Positions 14,778 to 61,935 of a stretch of 64,000 bases of DNA are shown one piece after another. This DNA is from Rhodospirillales bacterium (GTDB taxonomy: Bacteria > Pseudomonadota > Alphaproteobacteria > MPNO01 > UBA2964). Within the stretch, counting starts at the first letter, position 1; every line of letters starts with the position of its first letter. The position numbers were made by a program, and so were the translations under genes. The DNA lies in the NCBI GenBank assembly GCA_038120295.1, contig JAYOLL010000003.1:137132-201131 (forward strand), written 5' to 3'. The notes under the pieces were generated by a model. That model was not told where the DNA came from and searched no databases. It was given only the letters and a program-made list of their open reading frames with translations.

Positions 14778-15833
14778 ATGATTTACAGAGTCGTTTTCAT
14801 AAATCTGGGTATTCTGCTCGTGCTGCTCGTGATCGCCGAGCTGATCTTCGGGAACTGGCTGTGGGGCCCGAATTACGGGGCGATGAATATCCCCCGGAAC
14901 GTAGATCGCTATTTCGACACGTCAGGTCTGTACAAAAGCGGGGGGAGGTCCCGCTACAGCCGGGATGCTCTCGGGCTTCGGGGGCCATACGACGACGCAG
15001 GACGTATCGACGTCCTGACCATCGGCGGCAGTACGACCAACCAGCTCTTTATCGACGACGACAAAACATGGCAGGCCCATATGAGGCGTCGCTTTTCCGA
15101 GGCTGGTAAGCCGGCAATCGTAGTCGATGCGTCGGTGGACGGTCAGTCAGCGCGAGGCCATATCGCGGCGTTCGACCGTTGGCTTTCGCAGCTCCCGGGG
15201 CTAAAAGCGAAATACGTTCTGGCTTATGTCGGCATAAACGATGTTGCGCTCGACGACGCTGCCATATACGATTCGATGGAAGCAACCGACGCATCGCGCC
15301 GCTTCAGAAACGCGATCGCCAACAAGAGCGCGCTTTATGCCCTGTTTCGCACCATACGCGGCATGATCAGGGCCCGTGAAATGCATCTTGTGCACGGCAG
15401 CGCGCCGATACAGGGGCTTGACTGGGGAAAGTACCGTCCCGTCGAGGAACCCGCCCCGCCTGACCCGGCTCGTGAAAGGGATCTTGCCGCCTATGCCGAA
15501 CGGTTGACGGTGCTGATCGGAAGAATTCGGGCTTTCGGCTCGAAGGCAGTTCTTGTAACCCAGCCTACCGCAGAGTTTCGGGTGCGGGACGGCTGGGTCT
15601 GGGTTCCACGAAACAGGGATGGCGGTCTTAACCCGTCGGGATTTCACATCATGGACAGGTTCAACCGGGTAACCATGAGTACCTGCCGCGCTGCCGGCGC
15701 GATCTGCGTCGATCTGGCGCGTACCGTCGCATTTGAAGAAGGTGATTTTTACGATCGGGTACACAACACGCCGGCAGGCACTCGCAAGGTCGGCGAATTT
15801 CTGTACAGGCAGTTGAAGGACCGACTTCATTAG
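14778..15833 (+). CDS. membrane-anchored SGNH/GDSL-type hydrolase (putative esterase, deacylase or O-acyltransferase)
   Basis: 351 aa; N-terminal TM helix; SGNH blocks: I = LTIGGSTTNQ (Ser nucleophile in a GGS variant), II = DASVDGQS, III = YVGINDV (GxND), V = DRVHNT (DxxH). GC is lower than in flanking core genes. Confidence 0.6.
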   Translation: MIYRVVFINLGILLVLLVIAELIFGNWLWGPNYGAMNIPRNVDRYFDTSGLYKSGGRSRYSRDALGLRGPYDDAGRIDVLTIGGSTTNQLFIDDDKTWQAHMRRRFSEAGKPAIVVDASVDGQSARGHIAAFDRWLSQLPGLKAKYVLAYVGINDVALDDAAIYDSMEATDASRRFRNAIANKSALYALFRTIRGMIRAREMHLVHGSAPIQGLDWGKYRPVEEPAPPDPARERDLAAYAERLTVLIGRIRAFGSKAVLVTQPTAEFRVRDGWVWVPRNRDGGLNPSGFHIMDRFNRVTMSTCRAAGAICVDLARTVAFEEGDFYDRVHNTPAGTRKVGEFLYRQLKDRLH

Positions 15834-17520: not shown

Positions 17521-19440
17521 CTATTCGGCTGGATGAGGCCAGCTTTCTTCCGGCACCCATTTTCCGCTGTCTTTTCTGAGCAACCAGGAGCGGCTTGCCT
17601 TCAGGTCGACCCCCAGGGCCTGTTTCAGAGACGGGGTGAAATCATATAGCCAGATATGGCTTATCTGTTTGTCTTCTATGCGTTTTCGAACGGATTCCGG
17701 AGTCAGGCGGTTCCATGATGTGACCCTGTCAACCAGGGCTGTCACCGGCAACAGGTGATATCGCATGATGATCAGGTACTGGCCATTATCGCTGGCGTCG
17801 ACGAGCAGGATCCGGTCGCCGGCAGCTAGCCGGTCGGCAAGCGCGCGACCGGTTTCCCAAGCATACTGGTAACGCGGATGCGTATCGAAGCGCAGTTTTT
17901 TCGCCATACCGACCGGAAGGGCGATAACCAGCACGATGGCTGCCATATGTGCCCATGACGGCATTCTGCCGGGCAGGTAGCGCCGCCAGAGCAGGGCTGC
18001 GCTGAATGCCGCGAAAAGGAGGCAAACGCCCCCCAGATGCGTGTTGTAGCGCCAGTAAGATGCGGCATACAGGGCTTCGCCGCTGCCGAACGCTGTCACA
18101 TAGGCGAACAGAAGGAAAAAATTGTAGGACAGGAACATCGTCCCGGTGATGATGGCGAGGCGGCTGAAAGCCCCCCTGTATCGCCAAATCGCGAGGACAC
18201 CGGCCACGACCGCTATTGTCATGACGCCGAAATATCCCCCTTTCTTACTGGCGATCAGCGCCATACGCGCGATGATCTGCGGGATTTCCCGGATAAGCCA
18301 CTCGGAATAGGGCAGGAACTCAAAATCGCCTTCAGTAATGTGAAAAGCGACATGCAGCTTCCAGAGAAGGTAAACGATCAAGGGAAACAGGAATATCCTG
18401 GCGGCGAGCCGCGCCGTCGCTTTCCACCGGATGGCAGGATCTCGTAACACCAGGATGCTAAGCGCAAGTCCGAGCGCCATCAGAAAAACGATATTGACCT
18501 GTTTGAGCCCGATCATGGCCATCGACACCAGCCCAGCCTGCCAGGCAAGAGACCGGGCCTCGTCTTCGTTGTCGATCGCGAGCGCGTTTGTTGACAGCCA
18601 GACCAGGGCCGCTGCGAATCCGACGAGGACGCCGGTTGGGGCATCCGCATAGGCGCTAAAGACCAGTCGTGTAACGTATGTCGGGTTAAGGATGGTGACC
18701 GCCAGCGCTCCCAGCGCGCACACCGCCCAGCCGGCCCGAGTTGCGTTAAGCGTATCGTTTGTCGGACCTGCGCCGTCCGATGTCCGGGACGCGGTAGAGA
18801 CAATAATCCGCGATATCAGAAGCCCGAATGAGAGAAGCAGCAGGACCGAAAAGATCGTCGACGCATTGATGACGAAAGCGCCGGTCACTCTGCTCGCCAT
18901 AAAAGCTACAAGTGAGTTGCCGTAGGGGTAGGCTGGAAAGACTGCGAAGCTCCTGGGCAGGTCCGAGCGTGGGACCGAATCGTGCTCGAAGAGATATCTG
19001 GCATGGGCCAGCCAGTGCGAAAACTCATCCCACTGTGTAGGAAGCATGGACGCGGCGATAGCAATGAGCGGGAGGGCGACAAGTGCGATACGGACAACTC
19101 CCGGATCCGTCAGGCGCCCGTTGCGTCGAAAGACGACGGTAGCGCCCGCGCATGCCCCCAACCCTAGCGCCGCCGCAACAGCAGTGAAGTGGGTTACGCC
19201 AATCGATGCGGCCAGTGTGAAGGCTGCTACAGCGATACCGAGACCAAAAACCAGGTCGCCCTCCGGGCGTCGTGTCGGGCCGCCTGCAAAAGCGCCGAGG
19301 CCGATCAGGAGGACGGCAACAGCCAGAACCGCTGCCAGCCCGCCGAGTTCGTTGGAGGATGGGATCAGAAGGTTTAGATGGGACAGCAACGTGAAGTCGT
19401 CCTGATGGCTGGGTGTGGCGGTCGCCCTGTACGGCAACAA
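17521..19440 (-). CDS. GT-C fold membrane glycosyltransferase (ArnT/PMT-like) with C-terminal soluble domain
   Basis: 639 aa; about 12 predicted TM segments over the first 470 aa then a hydrophilic C-terminal domain of about 170 aa; first extracytoplasmic loop carries WDEFSHWLAHARY (DE…ARY, reminiscent of the ArnT/PMT DExRYAE catalytic loop). Confidence 0.55.
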   Translation of the reverse strand: MLPYRATATPSHQDDFTLLSHLNLLIPSSNELGGLAAVLAVAVLLIGLGAFAGGPTRRPEGDLVFGLGIAVAAFTLAASIGVTHFTAVAAALGLGACAGATVVFRRNGRLTDPGVVRIALVALPLIAIAASMLPTQWDEFSHWLAHARYLFEHDSVPRSDLPRSFAVFPAYPYGNSLVAFMASRVTGAFVINASTIFSVLLLLSFGLLISRIIVSTASRTSDGAGPTNDTLNATRAGWAVCALGALAVTILNPTYVTRLVFSAYADAPTGVLVGFAAALVWLSTNALAIDNEDEARSLAWQAGLVSMAMIGLKQVNIVFLMALGLALSILVLRDPAIRWKATARLAARIFLFPLIVYLLWKLHVAFHITEGDFEFLPYSEWLIREIPQIIARMALIASKKGGYFGVMTIAVVAGVLAIWRYRGAFSRLAIITGTMFLSYNFFLLFAYVTAFGSGEALYAASYWRYNTHLGGVCLLFAAFSAALLWRRYLPGRMPSWAHMAAIVLVIALPVGMAKKLRFDTHPRYQYAWETGRALADRLAAGDRILLVDASDNGQYLIIMRYHLLPVTALVDRVTSWNRLTPESVRKRIEDKQISHIWLYDFTPSLKQALGVDLKASRSWLLRKDSGKWVPEESWPHPAE

Positions 19441-24795: not shown

Positions 24796-24885
24796 GGGTT
24801 CCTCGCTGGATTGAGATCATAGTATAATCGTTCCATGCCCGCGGCATGGTCTCTCACGAAAATACTTGATCCCGGACGTTTTGTA

Positions 24886-25989
24886 ATGCGCGTTCGCGCG
24901 TGGCTGGCTGCGGTCGCGATTTTTGCTATGACGGTCGCAGCGTCCAGCGGTTTTTCAGTTGCTCAGACAGGCGGCGCCTTTAAAGTCGTCGGGGTTCCAA
25001 TCGACCAGACAGCCGAATCGGCTGCCGCAGCCCGAACGCTTGCGCTGGCGGCAGGACAGCAGGAAGCCTATCGCAGACTCGTCCGCCGTCTGGCGCTCCT
25101 CGGCGATATCGGCACCGCGCCGGCAGCGTCACCCGCACTGTTGCGGGAAATCGTGTCCGGGATCGCGGTAGAATCCGAGAAAACCTCGTCGGTCCGTTAT
25201 CTCGCCAGCCTGACGGTGGATTTCGATCCGGCCGCGGTCAGAAAGCGGTTTCTTGCGGCGGGGCTTCGATGGGCGGAAACACAAAGCAAGCCGCTTGTCG
25301 TTCTGCCCGTATTCCGGACACAGGGAACGGTACAGCTCTGGGACAGGACGAATATCTGGCACCAGACCTGGCGGGACGCGCCGGAGAGCGATGGTCTGAT
25401 CAGACTGATTGTTCCTCCGGGCGAAACCAGCGACCTTGCGGCGATCAGCCCCTCGCAAGCGCTGTCAGGAGACGAGGCGCGGATTTCCGTCATCGCCGAA
25501 CAGTACGGCGCCGGCGGCGCGCTGCTGCTGGCCGCGACGCTTTCTTCCGAACCGGGCACCGGCCACGTTCTGGCTGTTTCGATCAACAGATTCAGTTCGG
25601 CCGGTTCGCACTGGGCGTCGACGCGAAGCTTTGCAGCGAATCCCGATACCACCGTATCTGAATTGATGACCCTGGCGGTTAACCAGGTGCGTCGGGATAT
25701 CGAGGAAGAGTGGAAATTCGACAATCTCCTGCGGTTCGGCGAACAGCAGGAACTGGTCGCGGTCGCACCGCTGTCGGGCTTGCGGGCATTGATCCGTATC
25801 AAGCGGCTGTTGCAGTCAGTAGCCGAAATCAGGTCATTCGAACTGATCTCGGTGACGCGGGAAGAAGCCAGATTCAGGTTACGCTATCTCGGCGATCCGG
25901 CGCAGCTTGAATTCGCCCTGGCGCAGAAGGATCTTGCGCTGACGCAGGGGGCGGTTGACTGGCGGCTTGCGCTCAAGGGGCCCGGATGA
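24886..25989 (+). CDS. DUF2066 domain-containing periplasmic protein
   Basis: 367 aa from the Met preceding a signal peptide (MRVRAWLAAVAIFAMTVAASSG); divergent from purM and upstream of a CDP-alcohol phosphatidyltransferase, the usual DUF2066 context in alpha-proteobacteria. The family assignment is recalled from memory, not searched. Confidence 0.55.
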   Translation: MRVRAWLAAVAIFAMTVAASSGFSVAQTGGAFKVVGVPIDQTAESAAAARTLALAAGQQEAYRRLVRRLALLGDIGTAPAASPALLREIVSGIAVESEKTSSVRYLASLTVDFDPAAVRKRFLAAGLRWAETQSKPLVVLPVFRTQGTVQLWDRTNIWHQTWRDAPESDGLIRLIVPPGETSDLAAISPSQALSGDEARISVIAEQYGAGGALLLAATLSSEPGTGHVLAVSINRFSSAGSHWASTRSFAANPDTTVSELMTLAVNQVRRDIEEEWKFDNLLRFGEQQELVAVAPLSGLRALIRIKRLLQSVAEIRSFELISVTREEARFRLRYLGDPAQLEFALAQKDLALTQGAVDWRLALKGPG

Positions 25990-54837: not shown

Positions 54838-55161
54838 ATGCGGTATCATTTCTGGTACGTGCTGATCCATATCGGCCTCGGGCTGATCGGCTGGCAGATT
54901 TTCACCTTTACCAATATCGGCGGGCTTTATGCATTTGGCGCAGCGGGCGTTGTGCAGGCCTATGCGATTTTTGAAATACACCGCGACGCCCGTCCGAAGT
55001 TCAACGCCATGCAGGCGCAGACCGACAGCATGCTCGAGCGGCAACAGAACGAGCAGGATTATCGCAAGAGGCTGACCCGGACGTGGTTTTTCCGGTCCTG
55101 CATCTACGCGCTGCTGACCCTGATCGCAGCGATGGCGACGCAGGGCGCAACGGTCCAGTAG
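54838..55161 (+). CDS. small 2-3 TM membrane protein of unknown function (between gatA and gatB)
   Basis: 107 aa; hydrophobic segments [44 protein letters not shown]. Confidence 0.45.
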
Positions 55162-56743: not shown

Positions 56744-57463
56744 ATGATCGATCTTTATACTTGGGCCACGCCCAACGGCCACAAGGTCCACATCATGCTC
56801 GAGGAAACCGGGCTGGATTACACGGTGCATGGCATCAATATCCGCGCGGGAGACCAGTTCGAAGACGATTTTCTCAGAATCAGTCCCAACAACCGGATTC
56901 CGGCCATCGTCGACCGCGACGGACCGGGGGGAAAGGAACTGTCGCTGTTTGAGACCGGCGCGATCCTGATTTATCTGGGCGACAAGACAGGGCAGTTCAT
57001 GCCCGGTCTGGAGGACGACGCGCATGGGCGCTACAATGTAATGCAGTGGCTGATGTGGCAGATGGGCGGCGTCGGCCCGATGTTCGGTCAGGCCAGTCAT
57101 TTCACGGGATATGCGCGCGAACGCCACAGCGACGCGGAACTTCAGTACGGCATTGATCGCTATACCAACGAGGCCAACCGGCTTTACGGCGTGATGGATC
57201 GCCGGCTTGCGGAAGCCGAGTATCTTGCTGGCGACTATTCGATCGCGGACATGGCGGTCTGGCCGTGGTGCCGGGAACCGTCGCGACGCGGCGTCGATCC
57301 GTCCGATTATCCCAACGTGCAGCGCTGGTTCGATGCGATCGAAGCGCGGCCCGCGGTGCAACGCGCGGTAAAGATCCTCGCCGAGGAATCGGTGCGGCCC
57401 GTCAAACATGACGACAGGGCCTGGTCGATCATGTTCGGCGACCGGCAGTTTCAGCGTAACTAG
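56744..57463 (+). CDS. glutathione S-transferase family protein (YghU/YfcG-like, Nu class)
   Basis: 239 aa; thioredoxin-like N-domain (LYTWATPNGHKV), C-terminal GST helical domain. Confidence 0.75.
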   Translation: MIDLYTWATPNGHKVHIMLEETGLDYTVHGINIRAGDQFEDDFLRISPNNRIPAIVDRDGPGGKELSLFETGAILIYLGDKTGQFMPGLEDDAHGRYNVMQWLMWQMGGVGPMFGQASHFTGYARERHSDAELQYGIDRYTNEANRLYGVMDRRLAEAEYLAGDYSIADMAVWPWCREPSRRGVDPSDYPNVQRWFDAIEARPAVQRAVKILAEESVRPVKHDDRAWSIMFGDRQFQRN

Positions 57464-57493
57464 TCAGCAAGCAAAAGGGAGAACGAGAAAGCA

Positions 57494-58090
57494 ATGTTCG
57501 TGAGAAAACTTAAATCAGTCCTGCCGGCGATTGCCGTCGCCGTCGGGCTGACGTTGTCGGGGGCGTCGCTTGCGGCGGGTCCGAACGATACGCTCGACAA
57601 GGGGCCGAAAGTCGGGGCCACGATCCCGCACATGCTCAAGACGGTCGATCACCAGAACCAGCACCAGGATTTCAAGGCTCTGGCCCGGAAGAAGGGCCTG
57701 ATTGTCCTTTTTTCCCGCTCGGTCGGGTGGTGACCGCACTGCAAGATCCAGGCGGTCGCCTGGAACGACAAGTACGATGAATTCAAGGCGCTGGGTTATA
57801 ACGTCACCATCGTGACGCATGACAAGACGGACGTTCTGGCGAGTTTTGTCCAGAACGAGAACATCAGGTTCAGGATGCTGTCCGATGCGAAGACGGAAAT
57901 CGTTCCGGCCTTCGGCCTCGTAAACGAACGTTTCGAGAAAGGATCGGCCTGGTATGGAACGGCCCATCCGATGATCTTTGTGGTCAATCCGAAAGGCGTG
58001 ATCACGCATCGCTTCTCCGGCACCAGCGTATCGCAAAGACCTGCGGTCAATCTGGTGCTTGGGACTCTTAAGAAGGAAGCAGGCGGCTGA
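57494..58090 (+). CDS. periplasmic thioredoxin-fold redoxin (TlpA/AhpC-TSA-like) with in-frame UGA at the first redox-motif position; candidate selenoprotein (W-U-P-H-C)
   Basis: Track ORFs 57494..57733 and 57812..58090 are in the same frame. The only stop between them is TGA 57731-57733, exactly where the first Cys of WCxxC is expected (…LIVLFSRSVGW[TGA]PHCKIQAVAWND…). The continuous read-through product is 198 aa with a signal peptide. A hairpin with a GGUC apical loop lies 20 nt downstream and a terminator follows at 58116. Confidence 0.55.
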
Positions 58091-58115
58091 GAACGCTGGA
58101 CTTTTCGTACCACGA

Positions 58116-58148
58116 ACGGCGGCTCCAGGAGCCGCCGTTTTCGTTTGA
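58116..58148 (+). terminator. rho-independent terminator after the redoxin gene
   Basis: ACGGCGGCT-CCAGG-AGCCGCCGT followed by TTTCGTTT. Confidence 0.65.
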
Positions 58149-58202
58149 AGGGTTCCGATTGTATCCTTCCGGTTCGACAGGGAAAGTTGAAAGGATATCG
58201 CC

Positions 58203-60364: not shown

Positions 60365-61360
60365 TCAGGCAGTGATCGGAAGATCGCCCTTCTTGGCGTC
60401 GATCAGGATGATGGCGAGGCGGCACGTCTCTGTCCCGCGGTTGATCCAGCTATGGTTCGTTCCCTGCTGGACCATGATGTCTCCCGGGTTCAGGTGCACT
60501 TCGGCGCCGTCGTCCAGTTCCATGTCAATCTCGCCCGAAACGCAGAAGATTATGTCCAGCGTGTCCGTGCGGTGCATCCGGCCCGGCATTCCCGCCGGGT
60601 AATCGTTGATGGTGAAGCGGTTCCCGCGCGGCGGCGGCTGGGTGCCGAGGCGGCGCGCACCGTAATCTTCATCTGTCCACATCTCGCAGGGGGATTCGTC
60701 CATCGACCAGATCAGGGTCGAGACCATGCCGCGTCCCGACCATTTGTGATTGGATGCGACGCCATCCATCCCGACCACTGCTTTGCCGTTCGCGTCATGC
60801 GTGGTGACGATGCGGCGGATCGGGGGATTGGGCGGCTCGCCCGTGCCGTCATGCGGCTTGCTCGGCGGCGGGGCGGTTTCGCCCGGACCGGGTTCGTTCT
60901 TGGCGTCCATCAGAACGAAACCGAGCCGACAGGGCTCGGTGCCGCGATTGACCCAGCTATGGTTGGTGCCCTGCTGCACCATGACGTCGCCAGCCTTCAT
61001 ATGGACCGAAGCGCCGTCATCCATGTCCATATCGATTTCGCCCGACAGGCAGATGACGTAATCCAGCGTGTCGGTGCGGTGCATGTTTCCAGGGCAACCC
61101 GGCAGGAACTCGATCACACAGATGCGCGCGCCGTTGGGTTCCGGTTCGCGGTTGACGATACGCTGGCCGAAATCCTCGTCCGACCAGATTTCCACCGGCA
61201 TCTCGTCGGCGTACCAGACCAGGGTCGAAACGCTCTGGTTATGCTTTGGCCATTTATGGTTGGTCGCGGGACCGTCCATCGTGACGACGGCCTTCATGTT
61301 CTCGTCGTGGCCCGTGACGATGCGCCGGATCGGCGGATCGGGCAGCAGGGGATCAGCCAT
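60365..61360 (-). CDS. bicupin protein (two tandem cupin domains)
   Basis: 331 aa from ATG at 61360 (AAGGAG RBS); two homologous halves (PPIRRIVTGHDENMKAVV…GEIDMDMDDGASVHMKAGDVMVQQGTNHSWVNRGTEPCRL and PPIRRIVTTHDANGKAVV…GEIDMELDDGAEVHLNPGDIMVQQGTNHSWINRGTETCRL). The track's 109-aa Arg-rich N-terminal extension is rejected. Confidence 0.7.
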   Translation of the reverse strand: MADPLLPDPPIRRIVTGHDENMKAVVTMDGPATNHKWPKHNQSVSTLVWYADEMPVEIWSDEDFGQRIVNREPEPNGARICVIEFLPGCPGNMHRTDTLDYVICLSGEIDMDMDDGASVHMKAGDVMVQQGTNHSWVNRGTEPCRLGFVLMDAKNEPGPGETAPPPSKPHDGTGEPPNPPIRRIVTTHDANGKAVVGMDGVASNHKWSGRGMVSTLIWSMDESPCEMWTDEDYGARRLGTQPPPRGNRFTINDYPAGMPGRMHRTDTLDIIFCVSGEIDMELDDGAEVHLNPGDIMVQQGTNHSWINRGTETCRLAIILIDAKKGDLPITA

Positions 61361-61380
61361 TCTCAATTCTCCTTTCGGGA

Positions 61381-61935
61381 TCAGTCGGCGAGCGGCTTCG
61401 GGCCGCCGTCGGGAATATCGACATCGAACGACACCAGCACGACCGCGACCATGGTGTAGAACCCGATGATGGTGACGAGGTCGAGTACGGTCTGTTCGCC
61501 CAGAACCTCGACCGCCTTTGCGTAGGTCGTATCCGACAGCGACCGGTCGTGCGACAGCTCCTTCGCCACCCGGTAGACGATTTTCTCGTCGTCCTTTTCG
61601 ATGACGGGTTCCCGGCGCTCGCGGATGGCGTCGGCTATTGCGGGATCGAGTCCGACCTTTTCGACATATTTTTCGTGTGCGTACCATTCGTACTGCGCCG
61701 TGTAGGTCCGTGCGATGACGAGGACGGCGAGTTCGACGAGACGCTGCGGCACCGATGTTTCGTGCCGAAGGTGGCTGCCGAAAAGATTCGCCTTGTCAGC
61801 AAGCTCGGGCGTCCTGAGCCATAGCGCGAACGGCCCCTTGGCCGCGCCGCCGCCGCGCGTACCGGCGATCTCGTCATTGATGCGTTTCTGTTCCGCCGTC
61901 ATCTCGTCGAGCGGAATGGGGTCGATGCGGGCCAT
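61381..61935 (-). CDS. carboxymuconolactone decarboxylase (AhpD-like/CMD) family protein
   Basis: 184 aa; CMD fold pattern (…VELAVLVIARTYTAQYEWYAH…). Confidence 0.65.
   Translation of the reverse strand: MARIDPIPLDEMTAEQKRINDEIAGTRGGGAAKGPFALWLRTPELADKANLFGSHLRHETSVPQRLVELAVLVIARTYTAQYEWYAHEKYVEKVGLDPAIADAIRERREPVIEKDDEKIVYRVAKELSHDRSLSDTTYAKAVEVLGEQTVLDLVTIIGFYTMVAVVLVSFDVDIPDGGPKPLAD

What the first reader, a model, noticed from the sequence alone, without database searches (positions are those of the whole stretch)
57494..58090. Candidate selenoprotein: periplasmic redoxin with in-frame UGA at the first Cys position of its W-C-P-H-C motif
The two track ORFs 57494..57733 and 57812..58090 are in the same frame and separated by no stop other than TGA 57731-57733. 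The TGA falls precisely where thioredoxin-fold redoxins (TlpA/ResA/AhpC-TSA-like: …FWASWCxPC…) carry the nucleophilic Cys, here …LFSRSVGW-[UGA]-PHCKIQAVAWND…. Sec replacing the attacking Cys in a UxxC redox motif is the hallmark of bacterial Prx-like and thioredoxin-like selenoproteins. The downstream portion continues as a well-formed redoxin domain with no further stops, and a terminator follows the full-length ORF at 58116. The alternative explanation is a Cys-to-stop pseudogene or a TGC/TGT-to-TGA sequencing error.
Basis: partly seen in the sequence, partly recalled or inferred. Interest (0 to 1): 0.8.

Follow-up and report, generated by a model that had tools for sequence, protein, structure and literature searches.

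The report
Selenocysteine redoxin gene split by annotation
This is very probably a real selenoprotein gene: an exported peroxiredoxin-fold redox protein whose in-frame UGA, followed by a conserved RNA hairpin, encodes selenocysteine. It belongs to a selenoprotein family already predicted from ocean metagenomes, so it is a sound but unsurprising find.

Summary
ORF 57494..58090 (+) has one in-frame TGA (57731-57733) inside a W-U-P-H-C motif, and the read-through product matches Pfam AhpC/TSA across the TGA.

The selenocysteine reading is strongly supported:
- 16 distinct homologues from alpha- and gammaproteobacterial assemblies have TGA at the same column, and 7 fetched loci encode relatives with Cys there.
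- Protein-level constraint is equal before and after the TGA (pN/pS 0.50 on both sides).
- A 6-bp hairpin begins 14 nt after the TGA (57748-57763, loop GGUC). It is paired in 84 of 84 cells, 3 of its 6 pairs show double compensatory changes between clades, and G-U is invariant in the loop.
- Synonymous sites are frozen there only in the Sec forms.
- The exact 79-aa fragment ending at the TGA recurs in many independent assemblies, so a sequencing error is excluded.

The protein is 31% identical (E 2e-28) to a published "Prx-like 1" selenoprotein. That family (Prx-like thiol:disulfide oxidoreductase, PF00578, UxxC) is predicted but not validated biochemically. The scaffold is BCP/PrxQ-like, but the catalytic Pro, Thr and Arg of peroxiredoxins are replaced.

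Not testable here: whether selA/B/C/D exist in this genome (none are in the window).

Verdict: a new member of a known kind, of modest interest. The practical point is that public annotation systematically splits this gene.

The parts
57475..57481 (+). Shine-Dalgarno-like AAGGGAG, 12 nt upstream of the ATG
   Evidence: Read directly from the sequence; inference only.
57494..58090 (+). Full-length selenoprotein CDS of 198 codons plus stop. Codon 80 is UGA (Sec). The product is a Prx-like thiol:disulfide oxidoreductase with an AhpC/TSA fold.
   Evidence: Gene callers split it into 79-aa and 92-aa ORFs.
57494..57574 (+). Predicted Sec-type signal peptide: MFVRKLK, then a hydrophobic core, then SGASLA with the cleavage site before AG. 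The cleavage site is inferred.
   Evidence: Inspection of the translation. The same n/h/c-region layout ending in an AxA-type site occurs in every Sec and Cys family member. No signal-peptide predictor was available.
57731..57733 (+). In-frame UGA = selenocysteine codon (residue 80), first position of the U-P-H-C motif
   Evidence: There is TGA at this column in 16 distinct homologues and TGT/TGC in the Cys forms.
57740..57742 (+). TGC encoding Cys83, the resolving partner in UxxC. It aligns with the peroxidatic Cys of BCP.
   Evidence: HMMER alignment to 2cx3; invariant in the family.
57748..57763 (+). SECIS-like hairpin. The stem is 57748-57753 paired with 57758-57763, and the loop GGUC is 57754-57757. 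An optional seventh U-A pair is 57747/57764. It starts 14 nt after the UGA.
   Evidence: All 84 cells are paired across 14 sequences, with compensatory changes at 3 of 6 pairs. Synonymous identity here is 1.00 against 0.60 gene-wide.
57968..57970 (+). CCG encoding Pro159, invariant in the family. It aligns where peroxiredoxins have their catalytic Arg and is the candidate thioredoxin-fold cis-Pro.
   Evidence: The cis-Pro role is inferred.
58115..58146 (+). Terminator-like hairpin (11-bp GC-rich stem, loop CAG) followed by UUCGUUU, just after the full-length ORF
   Evidence: MFE -24.8 kcal/mol for the 60-nt stretch 58091-58150 that contains it, z = -3.08. Not called by the consensus scanner.

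Best explanation
The region 57494..58090 is one gene for an exported selenoprotein with a peroxiredoxin (BCP/PrxQ-like) scaffold and a thioredoxin-type U-x-x-C redox centre.

Proposed mechanism:
1. [quoted passage not shown] Selenocysteine is inserted as residue 80 instead of termination.
2. The N-terminal signal peptide directs the protein across the inner membrane.
3. In the mature protein Sec80 sits at the N-cap of helix 1 and acts as the attacking nucleophile. Cys83 resolves the intermediate by forming a selenenylsulfide. The protein therefore works as a thiol:disulfide (selenol/selenenylsulfide) oxidoreductase in the cell envelope, possibly with peroxide as one substrate.

Shown here: the single ORF, the Sec/Cys pairing across homologues, selection on both halves, the conserved and covarying hairpin, and family membership. 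Inferred: SelB dependence, export, the roles of the two residues, and the substrate.
For: - One open frame with a single TGA; AhpC/TSA matches across it.
- TGA at the same column in 16 distinct sequences from alphaproteobacterial (Paracoccaceae, UBA830, Rhodospirillaceae) MAGs, unbinned metagenome contigs and a gammaproteobacterial clade whose members are labelled Gammaproteobacteria/Pseudomonadales. TGT/TGC in 7 fetched Cys-form loci.
- In 10 of 13 TGA forms tabulated the true stop is TAA or TAG, while the internal codon is always TGA.
- The 26 codons between the TGA and the next start codon include family-invariant residues (C83, Q86, W90, L100, G101).
- pN/pS is 0.50 upstream and 0.50 downstream of the TGA.
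- Hairpin: 100% paired in 9 alpha sequences. Across 14 sequences 84/84 cells are paired, against 10-50% when the register is slid. Double compensatory changes occur at pairs 1, 5 and 6, with G-U intermediates, and G and U are invariant at loop positions 25 and 26.
- Synonymous codon identity is 1.00 in the windows starting 5 and 6 codons after the TGA, against 0.60 overall, in Sec forms. Cys forms drop to 0.35-0.5 at the same place.
- Hairpin energy averages -9.8 kcal/mol in Sec forms and -4.6 in Cys forms.
- Not an error: contig L006 is 99.82% identical and keeps the TGA, and the exact 79-aa fragment is indexed in 51 blocks across ENA, JGI, Logan and NCBI.
- TGA is the ordinary stop of 29 of 56 genes in the window, so there is no global recoding.
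- Family: 31% identity, E 2e-28, to GOS 'Prx-like 1' read JCVI_READ_486929. The family is listed as PF00578/UxxC in PMC2398784, PMC1088965, PMC9312934 and PMC13188914.
- The model of Cys homologue P0006 (pLDDT 83.8) is closest to BCP/PrxQ structures, and its CxxC lies at the start of helix 75-86.
Against: - No tRNA-Sec, selA, selB or selD lies in the 64-kb window, and the rest of the genome could not be searched. Sec competence of this organism is therefore assumed, not shown.
- The hairpin lacks the bulged U of the E. coli fdhF SECIS and sits 2-3 nt further from the UGA. No Rfam model matches it.
- Within the alpha clade alone there are only one-sided (G-U) changes and no double compensatory ones. 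The covariation appears only between clades.
- Some close relatives carry extra in-frame TAG codons (L002, L004, L018), so the gene decays in some lineages.
- The family has never been validated biochemically.
- Export and the enzymatic direction rest on inference.
Confidence: 0.85

Rival explanations
1. It is a pseudogene. A Cys codon mutated to TGA, the gene is dead, and only the 79-aa N-terminal fragment, if anything, is made.
For: Gene callers and public annotation treat it as two fragments. A few relatives (L002, L004, L018) carry additional in-frame TAG stops, which suggests decay in some lineages.
Against: The TGA is conserved at the same column in 16 distinct sequences whose identity to the window protein runs from about 62% (alpha clade) down to about 30% (gamma clade), across two proteobacterial classes. 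Downstream pN/pS equals upstream (0.50 and 0.50). The window copy has no other stop or frameshift. A covarying hairpin with frozen synonymous sites follows the TGA only in TGA forms.
Confidence: 0.03
2. It is a sequencing or assembly error, with TGC/TGT misread as TGA.
For: A single-base change would suffice. The window appears to come from metagenome-derived assemblies.
Against: An independent contig differing at 12 of 6,594 bases keeps the TGA. The exact 79-aa product ending at the TGA is indexed in 51 blocks from ENA, JGI, Logan and NCBI assemblies. The orthologues also have TGA.
Confidence: 0.01
3. The UGA is read through by a mechanism that does not involve Sec, such as near-cognate Trp or Cys insertion or hairpin-stimulated leaky termination. 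The product would be a non-selenium protein.
For: The Sec machinery was not found in the window. Downstream hairpins can stimulate read-through in general. The hairpin lacks the fdhF bulged U.
Against: The position is the redox-active Cys of a CxxC motif, where Sec/Cys exchange is the rule in selenoprotein families. The loop G-U is invariant at the spacing expected for SelB recognition. The family is a recognised predicted selenoprotein family. TGA is the commonest true stop in the window.
Confidence: 0.04
4. It is an intact selenoprotein gene in a host that has recently lost Sec decoding, or in which it is silent. The gene would look functional but be truncated in vivo.
For: Selenoprotein and Sec-trait loss is dynamic in bacteria (PMC1794560, listed). 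Sec machinery was not observed here. Relatives show signs of decay.
Against: The gene and its SECIS are intact, and the exact 79-aa fragment ending at the TGA recurs in assemblies from many samples. L006, the one near-identical contig compared base by base, keeps the TGA and the downstream sequence. Selection downstream of the TGA is undiminished among relatives.
Confidence: 0.05
5. These are two separate small genes: a 79-aa secreted peptide and a 92-aa C-terminal redoxin fragment that starts at GTG 57812.
For: This is how automatic gene calling annotates the locus.
Against: Neither fragment would contain codons 81-106, which include the invariant Cys83, Q86, W90, L100 and G101. The AhpC/TSA domain and the predicted fold need both halves. 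Cys-form homologues are single proteins of 190-250 aa.
Confidence: 0.02

Closest known systems
Prx-like thiol:disulfide oxidoreductase selenoprotein family, also called 'Prx-like protein' (Sargasso Sea, PMC1088965) and 'Prx-like 1' (GOS, PMC2398784). PF00578, UxxC/UxxU.
   Same: Same Pfam domain. Same UxxC motif, which takes the place of the TxxU/TxxC motif of true peroxiredoxins. Same W-U-P-x-C signature (WUPHC, WUPYC and WUPFC all occur in the GOS dataset). 31% identity and E 2e-28 to a published member. Both Sec and Cys forms exist. It occurs in marine Proteobacteria.
   Different: This alphaproteobacterial sub-clade (…RS[LV]xW-U-P-[HYF]-C-K-[IA]-QAVAW…) has its own almost invariant SECIS sequence, CCAGGC-GGUC-GCCUGG. 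The string UPHCK was not found in the stored (truncated) part of the GOS supplement. This is a difference at sub-family level, not a difference in kind.
E. coli fdhF-type bacterial SECIS element
   Same: A stem-loop inside the ORF directly 3' of the UGA, with G-U in the apical loop. The alpha-clade loop sequence GGUC is, as I recall it, the same as the fdhF loop. The spacing is similar: G25/U26 here against G23/U24 in fdhF.
   Different: There is no bulged U17 equivalent. The stem is a simple 6-7 bp helix that starts 14 nt (13 with the extra pair) after the UGA rather than 11 nt. No Rfam family matches it.
BCP/PrxQ peroxiredoxins (for example M. tuberculosis BcpB 5epf and Xanthomonas PrxQ 5iiz)
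   Same: They are the closest solved folds to the family model (TM up to 0.86 over the target). Cys83 aligns with the peroxidatic Cys. A second Arg-Pro (R182-P183) is conserved near the C-terminus. I recall it aligning with the second conserved Arg of typical peroxiredoxins, but that alignment was not run.
   Different: The catalytic residues are replaced: Pro by Ser76, Thr/Ser by Sec80, and Arg by the invariant Pro159. The NCBIfam BCP model scores 60 bits against a cut-off of 140.
ResA/TlpA/CcmG-type extracytoplasmic thiol-disulfide oxidoreductases
   Same: W-C-x-x-C motif at the helix N-cap, an export signal, and an invariant Pro at the cis-Pro position. The best PDB sequence hit is ResA (3c71, WCPHCK, E 1e-5).
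   Different: Overall sequence and fold are closer to peroxiredoxins. The ResA and DsbE NCBIfam models score far below their cut-offs (33 against 170 bits and 17 against 123 bits). There is no link to cytochrome c maturation genes in the neighbourhood.

Membership tests
Prx-like thiol:disulfide oxidoreductase selenoproteins (Prx-like 1) | AhpC/TSA (PF00578) domain | tested here: met
   PF00578 E 6.1e-22, residues 50-172, above the gathering score.
Prx-like thiol:disulfide oxidoreductase selenoproteins (Prx-like 1) | UxxC motif, with U encoded by an in-frame TGA that aligns with Cys in homologues and takes the place of the Prx TxxC threonine | tested here: met
   W-TGA-P-H-C in the window. The Cys forms WCPVC and WCVYC (DNA checked) and WCPFC and WCPYC (protein only) align at that column. 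The U aligns with the Ser of SxxC in BCP 2cx3.
Prx-like thiol:disulfide oxidoreductase selenoproteins (Prx-like 1) | Significant sequence similarity to published members | tested here: met
   BLASTP against GOS JCVI_READ_486929: 31% identity over 151 aa, E 2e-28. The motif strings occur in the GOS supplement under '#Prx-like 1'.
Prx-like thiol:disulfide oxidoreductase selenoproteins (Prx-like 1) | SECIS-like stem-loop immediately downstream of the UGA | tested here: met
   Hairpin at 57748-57763. All 84 cells are paired, 3 of 6 pairs covary between clades, and synonymous sites are frozen.
Prx-like thiol:disulfide oxidoreductase selenoproteins (Prx-like 1) | Host encodes Sec machinery (selA, selB, selC, selD) | not testable with these tools
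   None is in the 64-kb window or in the flanks of related loci. Alphaproteobacteria as a class are known to have the Sec trait.
Prx-like thiol:disulfide oxidoreductase selenoproteins (Prx-like 1) | Actual selenium incorporation | not testable with these tools
   This needs 75Se labelling or mass spectrometry. The family itself is only 'predicted with high confidence'.
E. coli fdhF-type bacterial SECIS | Stem-loop within the ORF close to the UGA (upper stem about 11 nt after the UGA) | tested here: met
   The stem starts 14 nt after the UGA (13 with the U-A pair). This is close to the E. coli value but not identical.
E. coli fdhF-type bacterial SECIS | Conserved G-U in the apical loop (G23/U24) | tested here: met
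   G and U are invariant at nt 25 and 26 in 14 of 14 sequences, in loops GGUC, GGUCC and CGUGA.
E. coli fdhF-type bacterial SECIS | Bulged U (U17) on the 5' side of the stem | tested here: not met
   The stem is a continuous 6-7 bp helix without a bulge in every clade.
E. coli fdhF-type bacterial SECIS | Binding by SelB | not testable with these tools
   This requires a biochemical or genetic assay.
Canonical peroxiredoxin (BCP/PrxQ) | Prx fold | tested here: met
   The AF2 model of Cys homologue P0006 (pLDDT 83.8) has BcpB, PrxQ and Bcp4 as top PDB matches, with TMt 0.78-0.86. The model is of a 38%-identical relative, not of the window protein.
Canonical peroxiredoxin (BCP/PrxQ) | PxxxT/SxxC active-site motif | tested here: not met
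   The aligned residues are S76…U80..C83. Pro is replaced by an invariant Ser and Thr/Ser by Sec or Cys.
Canonical peroxiredoxin (BCP/PrxQ) | Catalytic Arg contacting the peroxidatic Cys | tested here: not met
   In the HMMER alignment to 2cx3 the Arg column holds the invariant Pro159.
Canonical peroxiredoxin (BCP/PrxQ) | NCBIfam equivalog score above cut-off | tested here: not met
   PRK09437 scores 60.3 bits against a cut-off of 140. PrxQ, AhpC and PrxU are far below theirs.
ResA/TlpA/DsbE extracytoplasmic thiol-disulfide oxidoreductases | WCxxC motif plus cis-Pro loop | tested here: inconclusive
   The W-U-P-H-C motif is present, and Pro159 is invariant at the expected place. The cis conformation and its proximity to the motif were not measured.
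ResA/TlpA/DsbE extracytoplasmic thiol-disulfide oxidoreductases | Family model score above cut-off | tested here: not met
   ResA scores 33.4 bits against 170 and DsbE 17.3 against 123.

The most novel reading that the evidence does not exclude
The alphaproteobacterial WUP[HYF]CK-QAVAW clade may be a distinct exported, periplasmic selenoenzyme. It would be decoded through a minimal SECIS without a bulge (6-bp stem plus GGUC tetraloop), and so define a SelB-recognition mode different from fdhF. Its Cys-form sister clade (WCVYC) still carries a fossil of that SECIS, which would record a recent Sec-to-Cys replacement. The protein's envelope role (peroxide or disulfide reduction) might be new biochemistry for a peroxiredoxin scaffold that has lost its catalytic Arg, Thr and Pro.
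Probability: 0.15. Interest if true: 0.45.

Novelty: new member of a known kind. Interest (0 to 1): 0.3.

Why it matters
This adds a well-supported member and an alphaproteobacterial sub-clade to a selenoprotein family that has been predicted since 2004-2008 but never characterised biochemically. It also gives cross-clade covariation evidence for that family's SECIS.

The main practical value is for annotation. The gene is systematically split into a 'hypothetical protein' and a truncated 'peroxiredoxin' or 'redoxin domain-containing protein' in NCBI, JGI, ENA and Logan assemblies. One gammaproteobacterial fragment alone is indexed in 238 blocks of the collection. No NCBIfam model reaches its cut-off. 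A dedicated model with a Sec-aware rule would repair these calls.

Biologically, an exported Sec-containing redoxin on a peroxiredoxin scaffold without the peroxiredoxin catalytic residues is a reasonable target for testing what selenium contributes to envelope redox chemistry.

Tried and rejected
- Rfam search at permissive E-value over 57400-58200: no SECIS family. The only hit is a weak one to the unrelated sRNA model MH_s15.
- Consensus terminator scan: no call. I used folding instead.
- Search for Sec machinery: no tRNA at all in the window, no tRNA-Sec in 31 related loci, and no SelA/SelB/SelD among 20 size-compatible or neighbouring ORFs. This is uninformative rather than negative, because the window is only 64 kb.
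- Conserved gene neighbourhood: none beyond the near-identical contig. The adjacent gatB and GST genes are therefore not a conserved operon.
- Scan of the window for other TGA-interrupted coding regions with a downstream hairpin: 57731 is the only candidate that has a G-rich-loop hairpin at the right distance and lies outside the other mapped genes.
I modelled the natural Cys homologue P0006 instead.
- Naming the host organism through exact-match cluster look-ups: no organism names were returned.
- MAFFT could not place the 1-nt loop-length difference between the alpha and gamma hairpins. I did the pair count with an explicit register in a script.
- Global UGA reassignment: rejected, because TGA ends 29 of 56 genes in the window.

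Full report
**1. The observation**

The + strand between 57494 and 58090 is a single open frame of 199 codons. Its only internal stop is TGA at 57731-57733. Read through, it encodes 198 residues:
- an N-terminus that looks like a Sec-type signal peptide (MFVRKLK, a hydrophobic core, then SGASLA before AG);
- a domain that Pfam AhpC/TSA (PF00578) matches in one stretch, residues 50-172, spanning the TGA (E 6e-22).

The local motif is …LFSRSVGW-[TGA]-PHCK… HMMER alignments to solved structures place the TGA on the first Cys of ResA's WCPHCK. They also place it on the Ser of the S-x-x-C motif of a BCP peroxiredoxin, with Cys83 on the peroxidatic Cys. A GC-rich 11-bp hairpin followed by a U-run lies at 58115-58146, just after the full-length ORF (fold z = -3.1). 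The simple scanner did not call it.

**2. Not an error and not a recoded genome**

An independent metagenome contig (L006) differs from the window at 12 of 6,594 bases and keeps the TGA. The exact 79-aa peptide that ends at the TGA is indexed in 51 blocks of the public assembly collection, from ENA, JGI, Logan and NCBI samples. In the six places listed the gene was called as a 79-aa ORF followed by a 92-aa AhpC-TSA fragment. TGA is the ordinary stop of 29 of the 56 genes I mapped in the window, so UGA is not reassigned globally.

**3. Sec/Cys pairing in homologues**

Scans of genome and metagenome collections, plus look-ups of database fragments, gave 16 distinct homologues with TGA at exactly this column. 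They come from alphaproteobacterial MAGs (Paracoccaceae, UBA830, Rhodospirillaceae), from unbinned metagenome contigs, and from a large gammaproteobacterial clade. In 10 of the 13 TGA forms tabulated the true stop is TAA or TAG, while the internal codon is always TGA.

Relatives with Cys at that column are WCPVC and WCVYC (seven fetched loci, DNA checked) and WCPFC and WCPYC (database proteins). All are single proteins of 190-250 aa.

In the protein database most family hits are gene-caller artefacts: 107-116 aa C-terminal pieces that start at the first Met after the motif, or 83-99 aa N-terminal pieces that end in …SVDW or …SLDW.

The 26 codons between the TGA and the next possible start include family-invariant residues (C83, Q86, W90, L100, G101). 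This rules out two separate genes. Among eight Sec forms pN/pS is 0.50 upstream and 0.50 downstream of the TGA, so the downstream half is under the same protein-level selection as the upstream half. This rules out a pseudogene truncated at the TGA.

**4. The RNA element**

Fourteen nucleotides after the TGA lies CCAGGC-GGUC-GCCUGG (57748-57763).

- In nine distinct alpha-clade Sec forms, whose identity to the window protein runs from about 43% to 62%, it is 100% paired. The only two variable pairs change to G·U.
- Synonymous-codon identity in those Sec forms is 0.60 gene-wide but 1.00 (150/150 and 156/156) in the six-codon windows starting 5 and 6 codons after the TGA.
- The Cys forms encode nearly the same peptide (E/Q-A-V-A/D-W), yet their identity falls to 0.35-0.5 there against 0.76 overall.
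- Synonymous divergence is 0.23 in codons +1 to +12 and 0.60 elsewhere.

The gammaproteobacterial Sec forms have a hairpin at the same codon position with a different sequence: CCAGUU-GGUCC-AACUGG and UCAGUU-CGUGA-AACUGA. Across 14 sequences:
- 84 of 84 stem cells are paired, against 10-50% when the register is slid;
- three of the six pairs show double compensatory changes (C-G to U-A, G-C to U-A, C-G to U-A);
- G and U are invariant at loop positions 25 and 26, counting the U of UGA as 1.

The hairpin region folds at a mean of -9.8 kcal/mol in Sec forms and -4.6 in Cys forms.

The E. coli fdhF SECIS, as summarised in PMC8659212, has an upper stem-loop at nt 15-31 that starts 11 nt after the UGA. 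G23/U24 in its loop and a bulged U17 are essential. The element here shares the location, the loop G-U and, as I recall it, the GGUC loop sequence. It lies 2-3 nt further downstream and has no bulged U. No Rfam model matches it.

**5. What the protein is**

A model of the natural Cys homologue P0006 (38% identical; mean pLDDT 83.8) is closest to BCP/PrxQ peroxiredoxin structures (TM up to 0.86 over the target). Its CxxC sits at the N-terminus of the first long helix.

The residues that define peroxiredoxin catalysis are replaced. The motif Pro is an invariant Ser76, the Thr/Ser is Sec80 (Cys in the Cys forms), and the catalytic Arg column holds the invariant Pro159, at the position of the thioredoxin-fold cis-Pro. 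No NCBIfam peroxiredoxin, ResA or DsbE model approaches its cut-off. The protein therefore has a peroxiredoxin scaffold with a thioredoxin-type U-x-x-C centre.

That is exactly how the literature describes the family:
- GOS 'Prx-like 1': pfam00578, UxxC, 225 Sec sequences and 2,740 Cys homologues (PMC2398784).
- 'Prx-like thiol:disulfide oxidoreductase' in the 2022 and 2026 reviews, listed as predicted with high confidence.

The GOS supplement contains WUPHC, WUPYC and WUPFC sequences under '#Prx-like 1'. One of them is 31% identical to the window protein (E 2e-28).

**6. Mechanism (part shown, part inferred)**

Shown: one gene, a UGA at the redox Cys position, a conserved and covarying hairpin at SECIS distance, and selection on both halves.

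Inferred from established knowledge of bacterial Sec decoding: SelB·GTP·Sec-tRNASec binds the hairpin and delivers Sec to the UGA.

Inferred from the sequence: Sec-pathway export, with cleavage after Ala27. Every family member has the same signal-peptide-like layout.

Inferred from thioredoxin-fold chemistry: Sec80 at the helix N-cap attacks a substrate disulfide or a peroxide. Cys83 then resolves the intermediate to a selenenylsulfide, which an unknown envelope reductant recycles. The x-x dipeptide varies (PH, PY, PF), so the redox direction cannot be fixed from sequence alone.

**7. What could not be settled**

The window has no tRNA genes and no SelA, SelB or SelD among the ORFs tested. The flanks of related loci have no tRNA-Sec. 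The organism could not be named. Sec competence of the host is therefore assumed. Alphaproteobacteria as a group do have the trait.

The gene neighbourhood is not conserved beyond near-identical contigs. It comprises gatCAB, a YfcG/YghU-like GST, a GhrA-like 2-hydroxyacid dehydrogenase and an aminotransferase.

**8. Verdict**

The locus is a high-confidence, in-silico selenoprotein gene that belongs to an already described predicted family, so it is a new member of a known kind. Interest is modest. The useful outputs are the cross-clade SECIS evidence and the demonstration that public annotation pipelines systematically split this family.

Noticed in passing
L002:4195; L004:6127; L018 (same site, 81 nt upstream of its TGA at 1707) and L018:1854: Some relatives' copies carry extra in-frame TAG codons where close relatives have sense codons: TCG at the L002 site, CAG at the site shared by L004 and L018, and a T-to-A change in L018. 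L004 and L018 are independent assemblies that share one of these. This may be strain-level pseudogenisation of the selenoprotein gene.
   Followed up: partly
L013 and L014, codons +6 to +10 after the Cys codon: The Cys-form clade (WCVYC) keeps remnants of the Sec-form hairpin. L013 reads GAG GCG GTC GCC TGG, one base away from the SECIS sequence CAG GCG GTC GCC TGG. L014 keeps 5 of 6 pairs. This looks like a fossil SECIS and suggests a Sec-to-Cys replacement in that lineage.
   Followed up: partly
window 56744-57463 (+); L039-L041 1504-2493: A GST-family gene lies directly upstream of the redoxin in the window (YfcG/YghU-like GSH-dependent disulfide oxidoreductase, 30-nt gap). The same is true in one gammaproteobacterial clade (a 329-aa GST_N_2 protein). 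It is absent from the other loci, so this may be coincidence or a loose functional link.
   Followed up: partly
window 58097-58200 (+): There is a weak partial Rfam match to MH_s15 (Mesorhizobial sRNA 15): 23.5 bits against a gathering score of 123, E 0.001. It lies in the intergenic region that contains the terminator hairpin and is probably not significant.
   Followed up: no
window 57494-57733 and 57812-58090; P0057 and relatives: Public sources name the two halves 'hypothetical protein' (79 aa) and 'peroxiredoxin' (92 aa). The gammaproteobacterial fragment P0057 (112 aa, 'redoxin domain-containing protein') is indexed in 238 blocks of the collection. No NCBIfam model covers the family, so the split annotation is systematic.
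   Followed up: yes
window 60365-61687 (-): The 440-aa bicupin ORF has an internal duplication: residues 116-263 match the second half at about 61% identity in tblastn. Gene callers start it later, giving 331 aa. No NCBIfam family matched it.
   Followed up: no
window 54838-55161 (+): A 107-aa ORF with no Pfam hit is consistently called between gatA and gatB in all the near-identical contigs. This is an unusual insertion in the gatCAB cluster.
   Followed up: no
window 17521-19440 (-), 14778-15833 (+), 24835-25989 (+): Three sizeable ORFs (639, 351 and 384 aa) with coding-like GC3 have no NCBIfam match at E 1e-8 to 1e-10.
   Followed up: no
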